IMG/VR virus record: IMGVR_UViG_2529293069_000013
Length of the DNA: 19,848 nt
DNA from: a virus
Taxonomy: Duplodnaviria > Heunggongvirae > Uroviricota > Caudoviricetes
Reading direction: 5' to 3' (one strand)
Shown here: positions 5,868 to 16,143 of the stretch, piece after piece
How the letters are laid out: each line of letters starts with the position of its first letter
Numbering within the stretch: position 1 is the stretch's first letter
Translations under genes and position numbers: made by a program
Notes under the pieces: generated by a model
Told to the model about the DNA's origin: nothing
Seen by the model: the letters and a program-made list of their open reading frames with translations, nothing else
Databases searched by the model: none

Positions 5868-6348
5868 CAAGTAAATCCGGTAATTTATCCCCTGCCCGCG
5901 CACACTGATTTGCCCCCTTAGCAATAAGGGTTTTCAGATGGTCAAGATGGCGCGGTGTTAAATCAGGAAACTGTCGCTGCATGGATAAAGGGATGGAATC
6001 AAGCGTACTGGATAACGCCATTGCCAGCTTACTGAGGGCAAAAATACAGAACCCGGTGTCAATCAGTTTTCCTTTTGACACCTCATTTTTTAACTGCTGT
6101 GTAACAGCCTGTTCTGCTGTCAGTTCCCATCTGGCAATAAGCAATTTCTCCTCATAGTCGTCTTCGCTATCGCCATCAGACACATCGTTTTTACTTCTCC
6201 TCAGATACGATATGTAAAAATCGCGCCAGGCATCCAGATCCAGTTGCCCTCGCTTATTCGATATCGGGGCACCCGGCAATTTCTGCAATCTGCGAAGCTG
6301 GCGATCGGTCAGACTTAAATGCCTGGCAACTTCAGTCTGCGTAGCCAC
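5839..6348 (-). CDS. Nu1: Terminase small subunit Nu1-like (GTG start) with a non-lambda N-terminal HTH DNA-binding domain
   Basis: C-terminal half resembles lambda Nu1 (GFCIFALSKLA..LDSIPLSMQRQFPDL..RHLDHLK..LPDLLDEYI); the N-terminal HTH (ATQTEVARHLSLTDRQLRRL) differs from lambda; GTG at 6348..6346 preceded by GAGGTGAGGA; lies about 185 bp from cosN as in lambda. Confidence 0.85.
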   Translation of the reverse strand: MATQTEVARHLSLTDRQLRRLQKLPGAPISNKRGQLDLDAWRDFYISYLRRSKNDVSDGDSEDDYEEKLLIARWELTAEQAVTQQLKNEVSKGKLIDTGFCIFALSKLAMALSSTLDSIPLSMQRQFPDLTPRHLDHLKTLIAKGANQCARAGDKLPDLLDEYIRATTE

Positions 6349-6384
6349 TCCTCACCTCGCAAAAACTCTCACCTCACAATCACA

Positions 6385-6580
6385 ACAAAACCGGTCATGT
6401 CCGGTTTACATGTCTGTTTTTTGTTCATGTCCGGTTCACAGAAGACCTGTTTTTATATTTTTCATATAGTTAACTTGAAGAGAAACCGGACATGGATCCC
6501 GGAAAATTTTCATAAATAGCGAAAACCCGCGAGGTCGCCGCCCCGTAACCGGTCGGATCGCCGGAAAGGACCCACGAAAT
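6385..6580 (-). other. cos: cos site: cosN (12-nt cohesive end GGGCGGCGACCT, plus-strand complement at 6532..6543), cosB with three CATGTCCGGTT repeats, and a cosQ-side flank matching the lambda right end
   Basis: The reverse complement of 6501..6544 is GGGGCGGCGACCTCGCGGGTTTTCGCTATTTATGAAAATTTTCC, identical to the lambda left end. 6545..6575 matches the lambda right-end flank. Repeats sit at 6395..6406 and 6425..6436 (direct) and 6484..6494 (inverted, nearest cosN), with AT-rich DNA between them. Confidence 0.8.
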
Positions 6581-6655
6581 GATAATAATTATCATCTATA
6601 TAAGGTTTATCACAACATGTGTGTACGCCATCAAACCACGAGAAATAATCAATTA

Positions 6656-6688
6656 TGACGCAGGTATCGTATTAATTGATCTGCGTCA
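6656..6688. promoter_or_regulatory. Inverted repeat TGACGCAG-N17-CTGCGTCA upstream of the plus-strand RHH gene (candidate operator)
   Basis: 8-bp perfect inverted arms at 6656..6663 and 6681..6688, 62 bp upstream of the ATG at 6750; RHH proteins typically bind repeated half-sites near their own promoter. Confidence 0.35.
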
Positions 6689-6749
6689 AATTAACGTAAA
6701 AGCAACTTCAGATAATACAAATCAGCAACACTGAATATGGGGAAACATT

Positions 6750-6974
6750 ATGTCATCAAAGAACAGAACCCGCAGAACAACAACCCGCAACATCCGATTT
6801 CCAAACCAGATGATTGAACAAATTAACATCGCTCTTGATCTGAAAGGTTCAGGTAATTTTTCAGCGTGGGTTATTGAAGCCTGCAGAAGAAGATTAATTA
6901 ATGAAAAATATTCTCAATTTGTACCCAACAAAGACAAACACGACCAGAGCACCTGTTCAGACAGGTTTACTTAA
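6750..6974 (+). CDS. Ribbon-helix-helix (Arc/MetJ/CopG-like) DNA-binding protein, 74 aa; the only convincing plus-strand gene in the window
   Basis: RNIRFPNQMIEQINIALDLKGSGNFSAWVIEACRRRL fits the strand / helix A / G-x-N turn / helix B pattern of RHH proteins; followed by a terminator. Confidence 0.6.
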   Translation: MSSKNRTRRTTTRNIRFPNQMIEQINIALDLKGSGNFSAWVIEACRRRLINEKYSQFVPNKDKHDQSTCSDRFT

Positions 6975-6992
6975 ACGACTTATATATGACAC

Positions 6993-7019
6993 AAAAAGCG
7001 ACCACTAAAGTCGCTTTTT
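6993..7019. terminator. Bidirectional intrinsic terminator between the convergent RHH (+) and PerC-like (-) genes
   Basis: AAAAAGCGAC-cactaaa-GTCGCTTTTT: 6-10 bp stem flanked by an A-run on one side and a T-run on the other. Confidence 0.6.
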
Positions 7020-7055
7020 CTTATGGTAACAGGCAATAACTCTCTCAGATATTTT

Positions 7056-7370
7056 TTAGCATTTTTTTGACCGCGCGTTTCCGGACGTATTCTGTTCTCC
7101 TGTCCCTTTATATCGTCGGAATACCCGCCGCTCTTCAAATCCCATTCCCAACTCAGAATGTAGTCTGTTGACCGCTTGTTTTATTTCGGTCAGGTTCACC
7201 GGTGAAACCGGAGTCCGGCGCGCCTTACGCAAACACTCTGCTCGTTTCTGTGCCGCCACTTTTCTTTTCTGGTCATCACTTAGCTGTACCATCACTTTTG
7301 CCCATCGTTCAGCTGCTCTCCGGTACAGTCCTTTTTTCTCCAGACATTCTGCCACGTGATCATGTAGCAT
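7056..7370 (-). CDS. PerC-family (Pch-like) transcriptional activator, 104 aa
   Basis: The N-terminus (LEKKGLYRRAAERWAKVM) fits my recollection of the conserved PerC/Pch N-terminal motif, and 104 aa is the Pch length; strong RBS GGAGGT; located in the moron position between lysis genes and cos. Confidence 0.5.
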   Translation of the reverse strand: MLHDHVAECLEKKGLYRRAAERWAKVMVQLSDDQKRKVAAQKRAECLRKARRTPVSPVNLTEIKQAVNRLHSELGMGFEERRVFRRYKGTGEQNTSGNARSKKC

Positions 7371-7394
7371 AAGTGACCTCCGATTATCTACAGA

Positions 7395-7560
7395 CTGCCA
7401 TCCTGAATTTACCTTCCTTTAATGAAATAACAATAAAAAATAAATCACAGAAAAACAACAAAACAACACACAAAAAAACTAAATAATAAACCCAAATAAT
7501 CACCTTATTTTATTATTTTTTGAGAGAGCTATTACTGAACAAAAAACGCTGACTATATAC
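7395..7560. repeat. AT-rich, A/CA-rich low-complexity intergenic tract upstream of the PerC-like gene
   Basis: Runs such as aataaaaaataaatcacagaaaaacaacaaaacaacacacaaaaaaactaaataataaa; no ORF; typical of horizontally acquired regulatory DNA. Confidence 0.5.
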
Positions 7561-7834
7561 TCAAAACCAAACAACTATTCTGCCAATCAGGTATAATGGC
7601 AACACAAGGAATTACCGTGTTTTTGCCTTCTCTGCCCATACAATACGGACATATACTTCATACTCTATTGTAATATTTCCATCCATGCGAACAACTTCAT
7701 TTATCTGTAAATAATATTCAAAATATTTATCACAGAAATCGTTTTTGGCCATGAACTGAGCACACTATAAAGTCCGGAACTGACTCTTTGTTAAATTACC
7801 TTAACGTTACCAGTAACACCTTCATAACAAAACA

Positions 7835-8302
7835 TCACGGTATACACTGGGTACGGATATATTCCTGTGCTCCTTCCAGTTGCTTCTGCATTGCCATCAG
7901 CCGTTCTCTGAGGATGAAATAATCCCGTTCAGCGGCTTCTGCCAGTCGGGGACCGGTTGCATTATCCACGCCGGAGGTGATGGGGGCTTTACGCAAGGAG
8001 CCTGGACAGTTGGCGTTGATGCGCAGGCGCTTACGACCAGCGGCAACATCAGCACGCAGAGTTTCATTTTCAGCTCTCGCATCGGCTAATTCCCTCGAGT
8101 ATCTGGCATCAAGTGCAGCGACATCACGCTGGCGTACCTGCATATCAGTAATTGTCACGTTCGCCAGCTTCAGCTCACTGGCTTTTTTATCGCGTTGCGC
8201 TTTGTAGGTAATGGCGTTATCGCGGTAATGATTCAGCCCCAGACTAAGCACACCACAGGCTACCAGCAGGACAATAATCACCACACACAGAACACGGTTC
8301 AT
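7835..8302 (-). CDS. Rz: Rz i-spanin (inner-membrane spanin subunit)
   Basis: 155 aa; [56 protein letters not shown] resembles lambda Rz. Confidence 0.85.
7897..8082 (-). CDS. Rz1: Rz1 o-spanin lipoprotein, embedded in the +1 frame of Rz
   Basis: [20 protein letters not shown] (lipobox) ...[27 protein letters not shown] resembles lambda Rz1; the gene is nested within Rz. Confidence 0.8.
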
Positions 8303-11830: not shown

Positions 11831-12031
11831 GAAAATAAAGGGATAACGATGATAGTTTGAGAAAAACAGAAATAACACTTTTGTGGCAAAGCATGGTGCC
11901 GGGTGCCTCCCGGTGAATTCAGTATCAGCACCTGAATCCGCGATTACCCCATATTCCTTCTTGCTGATTGCCCCACCGCACAGGGGGATTCACCATGCAG
12001 AAGTGTTTTTAATAAACAGCAAACAAAAAAA

Positions 12032-12797: not shown

Positions 12798-12874
12798 TGG
12801 TGCGTTGTACTGGGTTCGAACCAGTGACCGATTGCTTAGAAGGCAATTGCTCTGTCCGGCTGAGCTAAAAACGC
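12798..12874 (-). tRNA. tRNA-Arg (anticodon UCU)
   Basis: 77-nt cloverleaf GCGTTTT-TA-GCTC..GAGC-ATTGC-CTTCTAA-GCAAT-..-CTGG-TTCGAAC-CCAG-ACAACGC-A-CCA; anticodon loop CU-UCU-AA. Confidence 0.85.
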
Positions 12875-12887
12875 AGAATACCGATAA

Positions 12888-12964
12888 TGGACCGCCATCG
12901 GAGACTCGAACCCCGCGAAACCAGCTTCGAAGGCTGGCGTTCTATCCCGATGAGCTAATGGCGG
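12888..12964 (-). tRNA. tRNA-Arg (anticodon UCG)
   Basis: 77-nt cloverleaf with anticodon arm CCAGC-CTTCGAA-GCTGG, T-arm CGGGG-TTCGAGT-CTCCG and a 7-bp acceptor stem plus TCCA; the D-stem has one mismatch. Confidence 0.75.
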
Positions 12965-12971
12965 TATGTGA

Positions 12972-13047
12972 TGGTGGCCCTTGCTGGATTTGAACCAGCG
13001 GCCTGGCGATTATGAGTCGCTCGCTCTCACCACTGAGCTAAAGGGCC
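12972..13047 (-). tRNA. tRNA-Ile2 (anticodon CAU, ileX/ileZ-like; Met cannot be excluded)
   Basis: GGCCCTTTAGCTCAGTGGTGAGAGCGAGCGACTCATAATCGCCAGGCCGCTGGTTCAAATCCAGCAAGGGCCACCA is very similar to E. coli ileX as I recall it; anticodon loop CU-CAU-AA. Confidence 0.85.
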
Positions 13048-15812: not shown

Positions 15813-15968
15813 TTACTCCTCAGGTTCGTAAGCTGTGAAGACAGCGACCTCCGTCTGGCCGGTTCGGATTCGTACCTCGCAGAGGTCTTTCCTCGTTACC
15901 AGTGCCGTCACTATGACGGTTAAACAGATGACGATCAGGGCGATTAACATCGCCTTTTGCTGCTTCAT
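15813..15968 (-). CDS. hok: Hok/Gef-family type I toxin, 51 aa
   Basis: MKQQKAMLIALIVICLTVIVTALVTRKDLCEVRIRTGQTEVAVFTAYEPEE against plasmid R1 Hok [58 protein letters not shown] RBS 9 nt upstream of ATG 15968. Confidence 0.8.
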   Translation of the reverse strand: MKQQKAMLIALIVICLTVIVTALVTRKDLCEVRIRTGQTEVAVFTAYEPEE

Positions 15969-16143
15969 AACCTGCTTCTCCTTGCCTTTCGGCGCGTAAG
16001 AGGCTAACCTACGTTTGTGAAGCATAGATTGGGCCTCAGATTAATGTTAAGCGTCTTGCAGGACGCGTAATGTTAACTGGGGCTTTTCTCTGTCTGCCTT
16101 ACGGTGGCATGCCCGAGGCAGACAGCCTCAAGCACCCGCAGCA

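What the first reader, a model, noticed from the sequence alone, without database searches (positions are those of the whole stretch)
6656..7370. Convergent RHH regulator and PerC-like activator at the prophage right end, beside cos
The only plus-strand gene encodes an RHH DNA-binding protein, with an upstream inverted repeat (6656..6688) that could be its operator. It converges on a PerC/Pch-like gene across a bidirectional terminator, and a long AT-rich tract lies upstream of the PerC-like gene. PerC homologues in pathogenic E. coli prophages activate virulence loci, so this pair may link phage state to host gene regulation.
Basis: partly seen in the sequence, partly recalled or inferred. 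Interest (0 to 1): 0.45.

Follow-up and report, generated by a model that had tools for sequence, protein, structure and literature searches.

The report
Known pchA virulence regulator beside phage cos
This stretch of a lambda-like prophage carries a virulence regulator gene identical to the well-studied pchA of E. coli O157:H7, next to a small conserved phage gene of unknown function, and nothing shows that the two work as a pair.

Summary
The described features are all in the sequence. The plus-strand ORF 6750-6974 is a DUF3950/YlcI/YnfO protein. The convergent ORF 7056-7370 (-) is a PerC-family protein. A hairpin with A/T runs lies at 6993-7019, a tract of 24-32% G+C lies at 7371-7834, and a lambda-type cos lies at about 6396-6573.

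The PerC-like gene is nucleotide-identical to Sakai pchA. The window is collinear with Sakai prophage Sp14 at about 99% identity, so this gene sits where Sakai has pchC. PchA/B/C are published activators of the LEE virulence island, so this part is already known.

The second protein is a real gene, because synonymous changes far outnumber non-synonymous ones. It is probably ribbon-helix-helix, on weak but consistent fold evidence. It is a conserved lambdoid gene that always lies antisense next to the packaging genes, with many unrelated neighbours.

The proposed operator repeat is perfect in only 6 of 75 related loci and imperfect in Sp14 itself. It is absent where the same gene pair joins another packaging module.

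The pair is best read as a mobile cargo gene (a "moron") beside a conserved mosaic-junction gene, not a regulatory unit. A link between phage state and host regulation probably exists, through late-operon read-through into pch. Interest is low.

The parts
7056..7370 (-). pch gene (group-1 PerC homologue). It is nucleotide-identical to Sakai pchA and is the positional counterpart of Sakai Sp14 pchC.
   Evidence: Pfam PerC PF06069 E=3.8e-44. 104/104 aa identical to ECs_1091 PchA. 0, 1 and 3 nt differences from pchA, pchB and pchC. UniRef names the exact sequence 'PchABC family transcriptional regulator'.
7371..7834 (-). AT-rich region upstream of pch, presumed to hold the pch promoter and regulatory sites and to be an H-NS-type target. 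It always travels with pch.
   Evidence: 31.7% G+C, and 23.8% at 7400-7550. All 688 E. coli records with pch carry this block through to the end of Rz at 90% identity or more. The promoter position was not determined here; the only consensus hit, 7602-7574, is within chance.
6993..7019 (.). Hairpin with flanking A5 and T5 runs, a candidate bidirectional intrinsic terminator between the convergent genes.
   Evidence: 10-nt perfect arms and a 7-nt loop. The hairpin forms in the folds of both strands: the 81-nt intergenic stretch folds at -12.3 and -17.3 kcal/mol. Conserved in Sp14. Function not tested.
6750..6974 (+). DUF3950 / YlcI / YnfO family gene. The N-terminal ~50 aa form a probable ribbon-helix-helix domain; the C-terminal tail is variable.
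6648..6688 (.).
   Evidence: One search reports both repeats, the first as 13-nt arms at 85% complementarity; the exact 8-mer form of A/A' comes. B/B' is perfect in 6/75 IMG/VR loci and A/A' is present in 62/75. The surrounding ~110 nt are about 95% conserved across four lineages.
6567..6573 (-). cosQ-like heptamer.
   Evidence: AGGACCC is invariant in the alignment with HK630, O276 and DLP12. Its identification as cosQ rests on established lambda knowledge (own recall), with the general cos layout from PMC9026076.
6532..6543 (-). cosN cohesive-end 12-mer (reverse complement of GGGCGGCGACCT).
   Evidence: Read from the sequence. The linear O276 record ends exactly at the adjacent CGTAAC. The identity of the lambda 12-mer is from own knowledge.
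6396..6494 (-). cosB-like region with three terminase-binding-type repeats CATGTCCGGTT. The one nearest cosN is inverted.
   Evidence: Direct and inverted repeats D1, D3 and I7. The layout matches the lambda R3-I1-R2-R1 scheme described in PMC9026076.
5839..6348 (-). Terminase small subunit (Nu1 type), shown as context.
   Evidence: PF07471 E=6.8e-19. Annotated as terminase small subunit in the 99.9% identical record.
7835..8302 (-). Rz spanin, the last gene of the lysis cassette, shown as context.
   Evidence: PF03245 E=2e-46.

Best explanation
The region is the junction between the lysis cassette and the packaging module of a lambdoid prophage of the Sakai Sp14 type. It holds two independent elements.

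(1) A pch cargo cassette ("moron") spans about 6897 to 7834. It contains an AT-rich regulatory region, a pch gene identical to Sakai pchA, and a hairpin terminator. Its left edge also supplies the last ~25 codons of the neighbouring ORF. According to published work, PchA/B/C bind AT-rich DNA at LEE1 and other virulence loci, displace H-NS/StpA and so switch on ler and the LEE type III secretion genes.

In a lysogen pch would be transcribed from its own promoter in the AT-rich region. Published regulators of pch include LrhA and Lrp (butyrate). pch lies on the late-operon strand between Rz and cos. The scan found no terminator-like site between Rz and pch on that strand. Q-antiterminated late transcription should therefore read through pch after induction. 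This step is inferred.

(2) A small DUF3950/YlcI/YnfO gene is transcribed antisense to the late operon. It encodes a probable ribbon-helix-helix DNA-binding domain of about 50 aa. It is a conserved lambdoid gene placed immediately before the packaging genes. Its molecular role is unknown, and its conserved 5' half serves as a recombination junction between exchangeable cargo and exchangeable packaging modules.

The two genes are neighbours by mosaic assembly, not a regulatory pair.
For: Identity of pch and the prophage:
- PF06069 scores 149 bits.
- The gene is identical in protein and nucleotide sequence to Sakai pchA.
- The window is collinear with Sp14 at 99.1-99.8% identity and with O157 strain 493/89 at 99.9%.

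Published function:
- PchABC are required for full LEE expression (PMC4456613; PMC6265319).
- Pch displaces H-NS at LEE1 (PMC4764244).

Cassette behaviour:
- pch plus the AT-rich block occurs in 673 of 5426 complete E. coli genomes, with a median of 3 copies, always covering at least 80% of the 7040-7840 query.
- In all 56 IMG/VR loci that hold both genes, pch lies at a near-constant distance from DUF3950 (159-169 nt). The flanking packaging module is one of three types: window-type Nu1, Sp11/NohD-type Nu1, or HNH+terS.

Independence of DUF3950:
- It lies in the same antisense position before the terminase genes in HK630, O276, DLP12 (ylcI), phage 2851 and JLK-2012. Its neighbours there are YbcW/lambda p79, a TonB_C protein, YbcV, or none.
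- Sequences matching part of the 6300-7850 query, mostly the cos-DUF3950 end, are in 4603 of 5426 genomes. Matches to the pch block are in 673.
- In Sakai Sp4 an IS629-associated inversion splits DUF3950. Cloned group-1 pch genes from strain PA20 still activate ler.

Real gene and RHH:
- Synonymous changes far outnumber non-synonymous ones.

Read-through:
- In strain PA20, an SOS-inducing antibiotic raised pchC 8-fold and pchB about 3-fold, but not pchA.
- In Sakai, pchB and pchC are co-oriented with Q, the lysis genes and terminase. pchA lies in a segment inverted relative to the Q and terminase genes on either side of it.
Against: - No expression or binding data were produced here. The pch promoter was not located, and the only consensus hit is within chance.
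- Late read-through is an inference from gene order plus one RNA-seq study in another strain. The pchB change there was not significant (P = 0.09).
- The constant co-travel of the 74-aa DUF3950 allele with pch could also be read as functional coupling. Other DUF3950 copies in the same genome could act in trans, so the Sp4 disruption does not rule out a role.
Confidence: 0.85

Rival explanations
1. The RHH protein binds the inverted repeat at 6656-6688 as its operator, and the RHH and Pch genes form a coupled regulatory pair.
For: The repeat exists, with 8/8 arms, about 60-95 nt upstream of the start codon. RHH proteins commonly autoregulate through short repeats (general knowledge). The upstream ~110 nt are highly conserved. 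The 74-aa allele always accompanies pch.
Against: The repeat is perfect in only 6/75 loci and is 6/8 or 7/8 in most. It is imperfect in the ~99% identical Sp14 and in the pchB locus of Sp11. Eight pch-DUF3950 loci have an HNH gene 42 nt upstream and no repeat at all. DUF3950 is widespread without pch.
Confidence: 0.07
2. Convergent-transcription coupling (an "excludon"). Transcripts of pch and DUF3950 overlap at their 3' ends, so expression of one lowers the other through interference or RNase III cleavage, whatever the protein does.
For: In K-12 the equivalent convergent pair ybcW-ylcI was scored as a convergent excludon in at least 50% of RNA-seq samples (PMC12288877). The gap here is only 81 nt. 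The hairpin stem is short, with a GC-rich core of 5 bp.
Against: The hairpin has T runs on both strands and should stop most transcripts from each side. There are no RNA data for this locus. ybcW is unrelated to pch and its intergenic sequence differs.
Confidence: 0.15
3. DUF3950 is a packaging-linked DNA-binding protein acting at or near cos/pac or on terminase expression. Its position next to pch would then be incidental.
For: It is always the gene immediately before the packaging module, whichever type that is. Two distant homologues are fused to a Terminase_2 small-terminase segment (E=1.6e-11). One of them lies in a satellite-like island between an integrase and a primase. A conserved dyad A/A' lies between the gene and cosQ in 62/75 loci.
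Against: The gene is antisense to the late operon, so it is not co-expressed with terminase. In HNH/terS-type phages the cos-proximal conserved block is absent. No experiment bears on this. Known lambda packaging needs only cosQ, cosN and cosB (PMC9026076).
Confidence: 0.15
4. DUF3950 is the antitoxin of a type II toxin-antitoxin pair, since its best structural matches are RHH antitoxins.
Against: There is no co-directional partner ORF. The gene is followed by a terminator and a convergent gene here, and by unrelated genes elsewhere. Its only PADLOC hit is a weak, unrelated methyltransferase model (E=0.0026).
Confidence: 0.03

Closest known systems
PchA/PchB/PchC of E. coli O157:H7 Sakai (group-1 PerC homologues; Iyoda & Watanabe 2004, as cited in PMC4456613 and PMC6265319)
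   Same: The gene is nucleotide-identical to pchA and differs by 1 nt from pchB and 3 nt from pchC. It has the same position between Rz and cos/Nu1 as pchB in Sp11 and pchC in Sp14. It has the same AT-rich upstream block.
   Different: No difference in the protein. The prophage backbone is that of Sp14, which carries pchC in Sakai, yet the allele is the pchA one. The window lacks the IS629 that Sakai Sp14 carries upstream of the holin gene.
PerC of the EPEC pEAF plasmid (Pfam PF06069 founder)
   Same: Same Pfam family, matched over positions 1-89 of 90. Both activate LEE1/ler (PMC4456613).
   Different: PerC is plasmid-borne in the perABC operon; this gene is a prophage cargo gene. The dependence of LEE1 on the activator differs between EPEC and EHEC (PMC4764244).
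YlcI (DLP12) and YnfO (Qin) of E. coli K-12; the unannotated homologous ORF at the right end of lambda-like phages (HK630; annotated in O276)
   Same: Same Pfam and NCBIfam family. Same antisense position before nohD/Nu1 and cos, with a nearly identical upstream region.
   Different: The C-terminal tail differs after about residue 50. The convergent neighbour is ybcW/p79 instead of pch.
Ribbon-helix-helix repressors and antitoxins (Arc/Mnt, CopG, NikR N-domain, ParD, MazE of M. tuberculosis)
   Same: Predicted extended segment followed by two helices. These proteins are the top structural matches. An in-register profile match aligns NIRFP with Arc NLRWP, P=6e-4.
   Different: No significant sequence match to any RHH Pfam model or PDB chain. 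No partner toxin. DNA target unknown.
Lambda bor/lom-type morons (cargo genes with their own promoter and terminator in the late region)
   Same: Cargo with atypical base composition and its own terminator, inserted between the lysis genes and cos, the slot where lambda carries bor, p78 and p79.
   Different: bor is antisense to the late operon. pch is co-oriented with it, so it can also be read from the late promoter (inference).

Membership tests
PerC family / PchABC | Match to Pfam PF06069 above the gathering score, over the whole domain | tested here: met
   149.3 bits against a cut-off of 22.6; positions 1-89 of 90.
PerC family / PchABC | Sequence identity to an experimentally characterised group-1 Pch | tested here: met
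   104/104 aa and 315/315 nt identical to Sakai pchA ECs_1091.
PerC family / PchABC | Encoded on a lambdoid prophage between the lysis genes and the packaging genes | tested here: met
   Gene order Rz - pch - DUF3950 - cos - Nu1, as in Sakai Sp11 and Sp14.
PerC family / PchABC | Activates LEE1/ler and counteracts H-NS | not testable with these tools
   Taken from the literature for the identical protein (PMC4764244; PMC5931665).
DUF3950 / YlcI / YnfO | Match to PF13132 and NCBIfam NF041551 above their cut-offs | tested here: met
   66.6 bits against 25, and 34.6 bits against 30. PHROG 949 E=1.7e-31.
DUF3950 / YlcI / YnfO | Protein-coding constraint, i.e. a real gene rather than conserved cos-flanking DNA | tested here: met
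   9-20 synonymous against 4-8 non-synonymous codon differences in 50 codons, for all pairs among six loci except those within the near-identical HK630/O276/DLP12 group.
Ribbon-helix-helix superfamily | Beta-alpha-alpha topology of about 45 residues | tested here: inconclusive
   The model has helices 19-32 and 37-55 after an extended N-terminal segment. No strand is called in the monomer, as expected if the strand forms only in a dimer. Mean pLDDT is 67.5.
Ribbon-helix-helix superfamily | Structural similarity to solved RHH domains | tested here: inconclusive
Ribbon-helix-helix superfamily | Sequence or profile similarity to RHH families | tested here: inconclusive
A PDB CopG-family chain scores E=0.48. 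RHH_6 scores E=0.092 for one member. The core profile finds no RHH chain.
Ribbon-helix-helix superfamily | Dimerisation and sequence-specific DNA binding | not testable with these tools
   Needs purified protein.
   Perfect in 6/75 loci. Variants are TTACGCAG...CTGCATCA (24 loci) and TGACGCAG...CTGCATCA (32 loci counted; 38 by the looser criterion). Absent in HNH/terS-type loci. Imperfect in Sp14 and Sp11.
Intrinsic (bidirectional) terminator | GC-containing stem-loop followed by a T run on each strand | tested here: met
   The 6993-7019 stem-loop is followed by TTTTTCTT on the plus strand and TTTTTGTG on the minus strand. The scan missed it, presumably because the A/T runs pair and extend the stem. 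Activity was not tested.
Type II toxin-antitoxin (RHH antitoxin) | Adjacent co-directional toxin gene | tested here: not met
   No co-directional partner here or in the other contexts examined.
Lambda-type cos | cosQ, cosN and cosB (three R repeats) in lambda order and spacing next to a Nu1-type small terminase | tested here: met
   Sequence at 6396-6573. Alignment with HK630, O276 and DLP12. Nu1 Pfam match. Site names follow PMC9026076 and own knowledge.

The most novel reading that the evidence does not exclude
The small DUF3950 gene, not pch, could be the interesting part. It may be a lysogen-expressed ribbon-helix-helix protein found in most E. coli lambdoid prophages. It is unannotated in the lambda-like phage HK630 and in the Sakai reference record. 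It sits antisense at the boundary between the cargo genes and the terminase genes.

It could act at the conserved dyad ATCAATTA-17-TAATTGAT near cosQ. One possible role is to insulate the terminase genes and cos from read-through by cargo-gene promoters such as that of pch. Another is to modulate packaging or satellite interference. The fusion of the domain to a small-terminase segment in a satellite-like island would fit a packaging link.
Probability: 0.12. Interest if true: 0.5.

Novelty: already known. Interest (0 to 1): 0.15.

Why it matters
PchA/B/C are master activators of the LEE type III secretion island in enterohaemorrhagic E. coli. Recognising this copy simply adds one more annotated pch locus.

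Two points have some modest value. First, pch is co-oriented with the phage late operon in intact Sp11/Sp14-type prophages. That gives a simple structural reason why SOS-inducing antibiotics raise pchB and pchC but not the inverted pchA. Second, the neighbouring DUF3950 gene is nearly universal in lambdoid prophages, is under purifying selection, is probably DNA-binding, and remains functionally unstudied and often unannotated.

Tried and rejected
- Sequence searches of both proteins against PDB chains gave nothing significant.
- Rfam found no known RNA family in 6300-7900. Its hits elsewhere were sok, STnc100 and three tRNAs.
- The promoter scan found no plus-strand promoter for DUF3950, and only chance-level hits on the minus strand.
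- PADLOC gave no defence-system link.
- YbcW/lambda p79, which fills the pch slot in lambda and DLP12, was tested as a hidden PerC relative. It is not one.
- The PICI protein Rpp was checked as a possible relative of the DUF3950-terminase fusion. It is a winged helix-turn-helix protein, not RHH.
- A search for motifs shared between the lambda-type and HNH-type upstream regions of DUF3950 found only k-mers at the level expected by chance in AT-rich DNA.
- Literature searches for YlcI, YnfO and DUF3950 found no functional study. The Honda 2009 paper on pch promoters is not held.
- The AFDB fold library was unavailable. The viral fold library added little.
- The antitoxin reading was rejected because there is no partner gene.

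Full report
**1. What is there**

The window is a lambdoid prophage with nearly all genes on the minus strand. It is 99.9% identical over its whole length to E. coli O157:H7 strain 493/89. It is collinear at 99.1-99.8% with prophage Sp14 of O157:H7 Sakai, apart from an IS629 present only in Sakai.

Read in the direction of late transcription (minus strand), the order around the finding is as follows:
- endolysin, 9325-8792;
- Rz, 8302-7835;
- an AT-rich tract, 7834-7371;
- a 104-aa ORF, 7370-7056;
- a hairpin, 7019-6993;
- a 74-aa ORF on the opposite strand, 6750-6974;
- about 190 nt of conserved non-coding DNA;
- cosQ-like, cosN and cosB-like sequences, 6573-6396;
- Nu1, 6348-5839;
- the large terminase subunit.

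The one factual slip is "prophage right end". This is the right end of the virion map, but it lies in the interior of the integrated prophage.

**2. The PerC-like gene**

It matches Pfam PerC (PF06069) at 149 bits over the whole model. The exact protein is named "PchABC family transcriptional regulator" in UniRef and occurs on at least 1000 contigs.

I compared it directly with the annotated Sakai genes. It is identical in all 104 residues and all 315 nucleotides to pchA (ECs_1091). It differs by one nucleotide (V6L) from pchB and by three from pchC. The prophage backbone is that of Sp14, so this is the positional counterpart of pchC carrying the pchA allele.

The biology is published:
- Pch binds AT-rich DNA and relieves H-NS/StpA/Hha silencing at LEE1 (PMC4764244).
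- LrhA and Lrp (butyrate) feed into pch expression.

This half of the finding is therefore already known.

**3. The AT-rich tract and the terminator**

The tract 7371-7834 has 31.7% G+C, falling to 23.8% at 7400-7550, against 51.6% for the window. It always travels with pch. All 688 E. coli records (673 of 5426 complete genomes, median three copies) that match 7040-7840 cover at least 80% of it at 90% identity or more.

I could not place the promoter. The single consensus hit on the minus strand is within the number expected by chance, and the paper on differential regulation of pchA and pchB is not held.

A 46-aa ORF inside the tract (7612-7752) matches a PHROG family. Against its Sp11 copy it shows 1 synonymous and 7 non-synonymous codon changes, spread evenly over codon positions. 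I therefore regard it as non-coding.

The hairpin at 6993-7019 has 10-nt perfect arms with a GC-rich core, and a T run follows it on both strands. It looks like a bidirectional intrinsic terminator, although its fold z-scores are modest.

**4. The plus-strand ORF**

It belongs to DUF3950 (PF13132, 66.6 bits) and to the NCBIfam YlcI/YnfO family.

It is a real gene. Over the first 50 codons, every comparison among six loci outside the near-identical HK630/O276/DLP12 group shows 9-20 synonymous against 4-8 non-synonymous codon changes.

Only the first ~50 residues are conserved, and the tail differs from lineage to lineage. The family is small: 108 clusters at 50% identity in 1.8 billion proteins.

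**5. Is it ribbon-helix-helix?**

- The AlphaFold model (pLDDT 67.5) has an extended N-terminal segment followed by helices 19-32 and 37-55.
- The Foldseek list is headed by NikR, Arc, ParD and other RHH domains, but every E-value exceeds 1.
- Plain profile searches of the PDB and Pfam gave only sub-threshold RHH hits.

I rate RHH as probable, about 0.8, and not proven.

**6. Is the inverted repeat its operator?**

The repeat TGACGCAG-17-CTGCGTCA is real, but statistically unremarkable on its own.

It is not conserved. It reads CTGCATCA in HK630, O276, DLP12 and Sakai Sp11. It is also imperfect in Sp14, the ~99% identical counterpart of this prophage.

Among 75 evaluable IMG/VR loci it is perfect in 6. 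Variants with one or two mismatches dominate. It is absent from loci where DUF3950 follows an HNH endonuclease gene by 42 nt.

A second dyad interleaved with it, ATCAATTA (6648-6655) / TAATTGAT (6673-6680), is present in 62 of 75 loci. The whole block 6640-6750 is more conserved than the synonymous sites of the ORF. If there is a protein-binding site here, that dyad is the better candidate. This was not tested.

**7. Are the two genes a pair?**

The evidence says no.

- DUF3950 sits in the same place, immediately before the packaging genes and antisense to them, in HK630, O276, DLP12, phage 2851 and JLK-2012. The gene on its other side is YbcW/lambda p79, a TonB_C protein, YbcV, or nothing before Rz. 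YbcW is unrelated to Pch.
- Sequences matching part of the 6300-7850 query, mostly the cos-DUF3950 end, occur in 4603 of 5426 genomes, seven times more than pch.
- In IMG/VR, the pch cassette together with the 74-aa DUF3950 tail is joined to three different packaging modules. Homology with lambda-type phages stops at about 6897, inside the ORF.
- Sp14 switches allele within the first ~30 codons.

The conserved 5' half of DUF3950 thus behaves as a mosaic junction, and each cargo cassette brings its own tail.

In Sakai Sp4 an IS629-associated inversion cuts DUF3950 in two. Even so, cloned group-1 pch genes from strain PA20 activate a ler fusion. Other DUF3950 copies could act in trans, so this is suggestive and not conclusive.

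**8. Link to phage state**

Q-modified polymerase should therefore transcribe it after induction.

This fits published RNA-seq from strain PA20. After an SOS-inducing antibiotic, allele-specific counts rose 8-fold for pchC and about 3-fold for pchB (not significant), but not for pchA. In Sakai, pchB and pchC are co-oriented with Q and terminase, whereas pchA lies in the inverted segment. The inference is mine. It assumes PA20 has the Sakai arrangement.

**9. Other readings**

- In K-12, ybcW-ylcI was scored as a convergent excludon in RNA-seq. Some antisense coupling between pch and DUF3950 transcripts is therefore possible, although the hairpin should limit it.
- Two distant DUF3950 proteins carry a small-terminase (Terminase_2) segment. 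One lies in an island with an integrase and a primase. That hints at a packaging-related role.
- An antitoxin role is unlikely, because there is no partner gene.

**10. Verdict**

The family assignments are right for PerC and probably right for RHH. The operator and "pair" interpretations are not supported. The locus is a known one, a pchA/pchC-type cargo gene next to a ylcI/ynfO homologue beside cos. Novelty: already known. Interest: low.

Noticed in passing
L007:4714-5103 (protein P0217); also P0241: The DUF3950 domain is fused to a Terminase_2 (small terminase) segment in two distant homologues. P0217 sits in a 6.8-kb contig between an integrase and a primase/AAA_25 gene, which resembles a phage satellite.
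   Followed up: partly
window 7612-7752 (-): A 46-aa ORF in the AT-rich tract matches PHROG 2157 over its full length (E=1.4e-35). Against Sakai Sp11 it shows 1 synonymous and 7 non-synonymous changes, so it is probably not a gene.
   Followed up: yes
window ~6830-6900 (inside the DUF3950 ORF): Mosaic junctions fall inside the ORF. Homology with lambda-type phages ends at about 6897. Sakai Sp14 switches from a lambda-like to a window-like allele around codon 30. The 74-aa tail always travels with pch.
   Followed up: partly
L008:22131-29827 (Sakai Sp4): The segment holding pchA, Rz, the endolysin and the holin is inverted between IS629 and an IS66-family element. This splits the DUF3950 ORF and uncouples pchA from the late promoter. 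It matches the lack of SOS induction of pchA reported for strain PA20.
   Followed up: partly
L002:389-583 (HK630); L009:27596-27820 and L090 ~22170-22400 (Sakai): The DUF3950 ORF is not annotated in the HK630 record or in the current Sakai RefSeq record, although it is intact and under purifying selection.
   Followed up: yes
It is present in 62/75 related loci and lies within a ~110-nt block that is more conserved than the adjacent coding sequence. Its function is unknown.
   Followed up: partly
window 15963-16137 (-), 11855-12027 (-), 12801-13047 (-): Rfam hits elsewhere in the window: the sok antitoxin RNA of a hok/sok locus, the sRNA STnc100, and three tRNAs that the near-identical record annotates as Ile, Arg and Arg, downstream of Q.
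   Followed up: no
phage genome collection (whole): Among 50,697 deposited phage records, the Pch protein is found only in one short fragment from induced O157:H7 EDL933. By contrast, 673 complete E. coli genomes carry pch as prophage cargo.
   Followed up: no
window 7056-7370 (-): Pch residues 7-47 give a sub-threshold NCBIfam hit to the ANR (AraC negative regulator) family of small helical proteins: E=0.046, 13.6 bits against a cut-off of 32. This may be chance.
   Followed up: no
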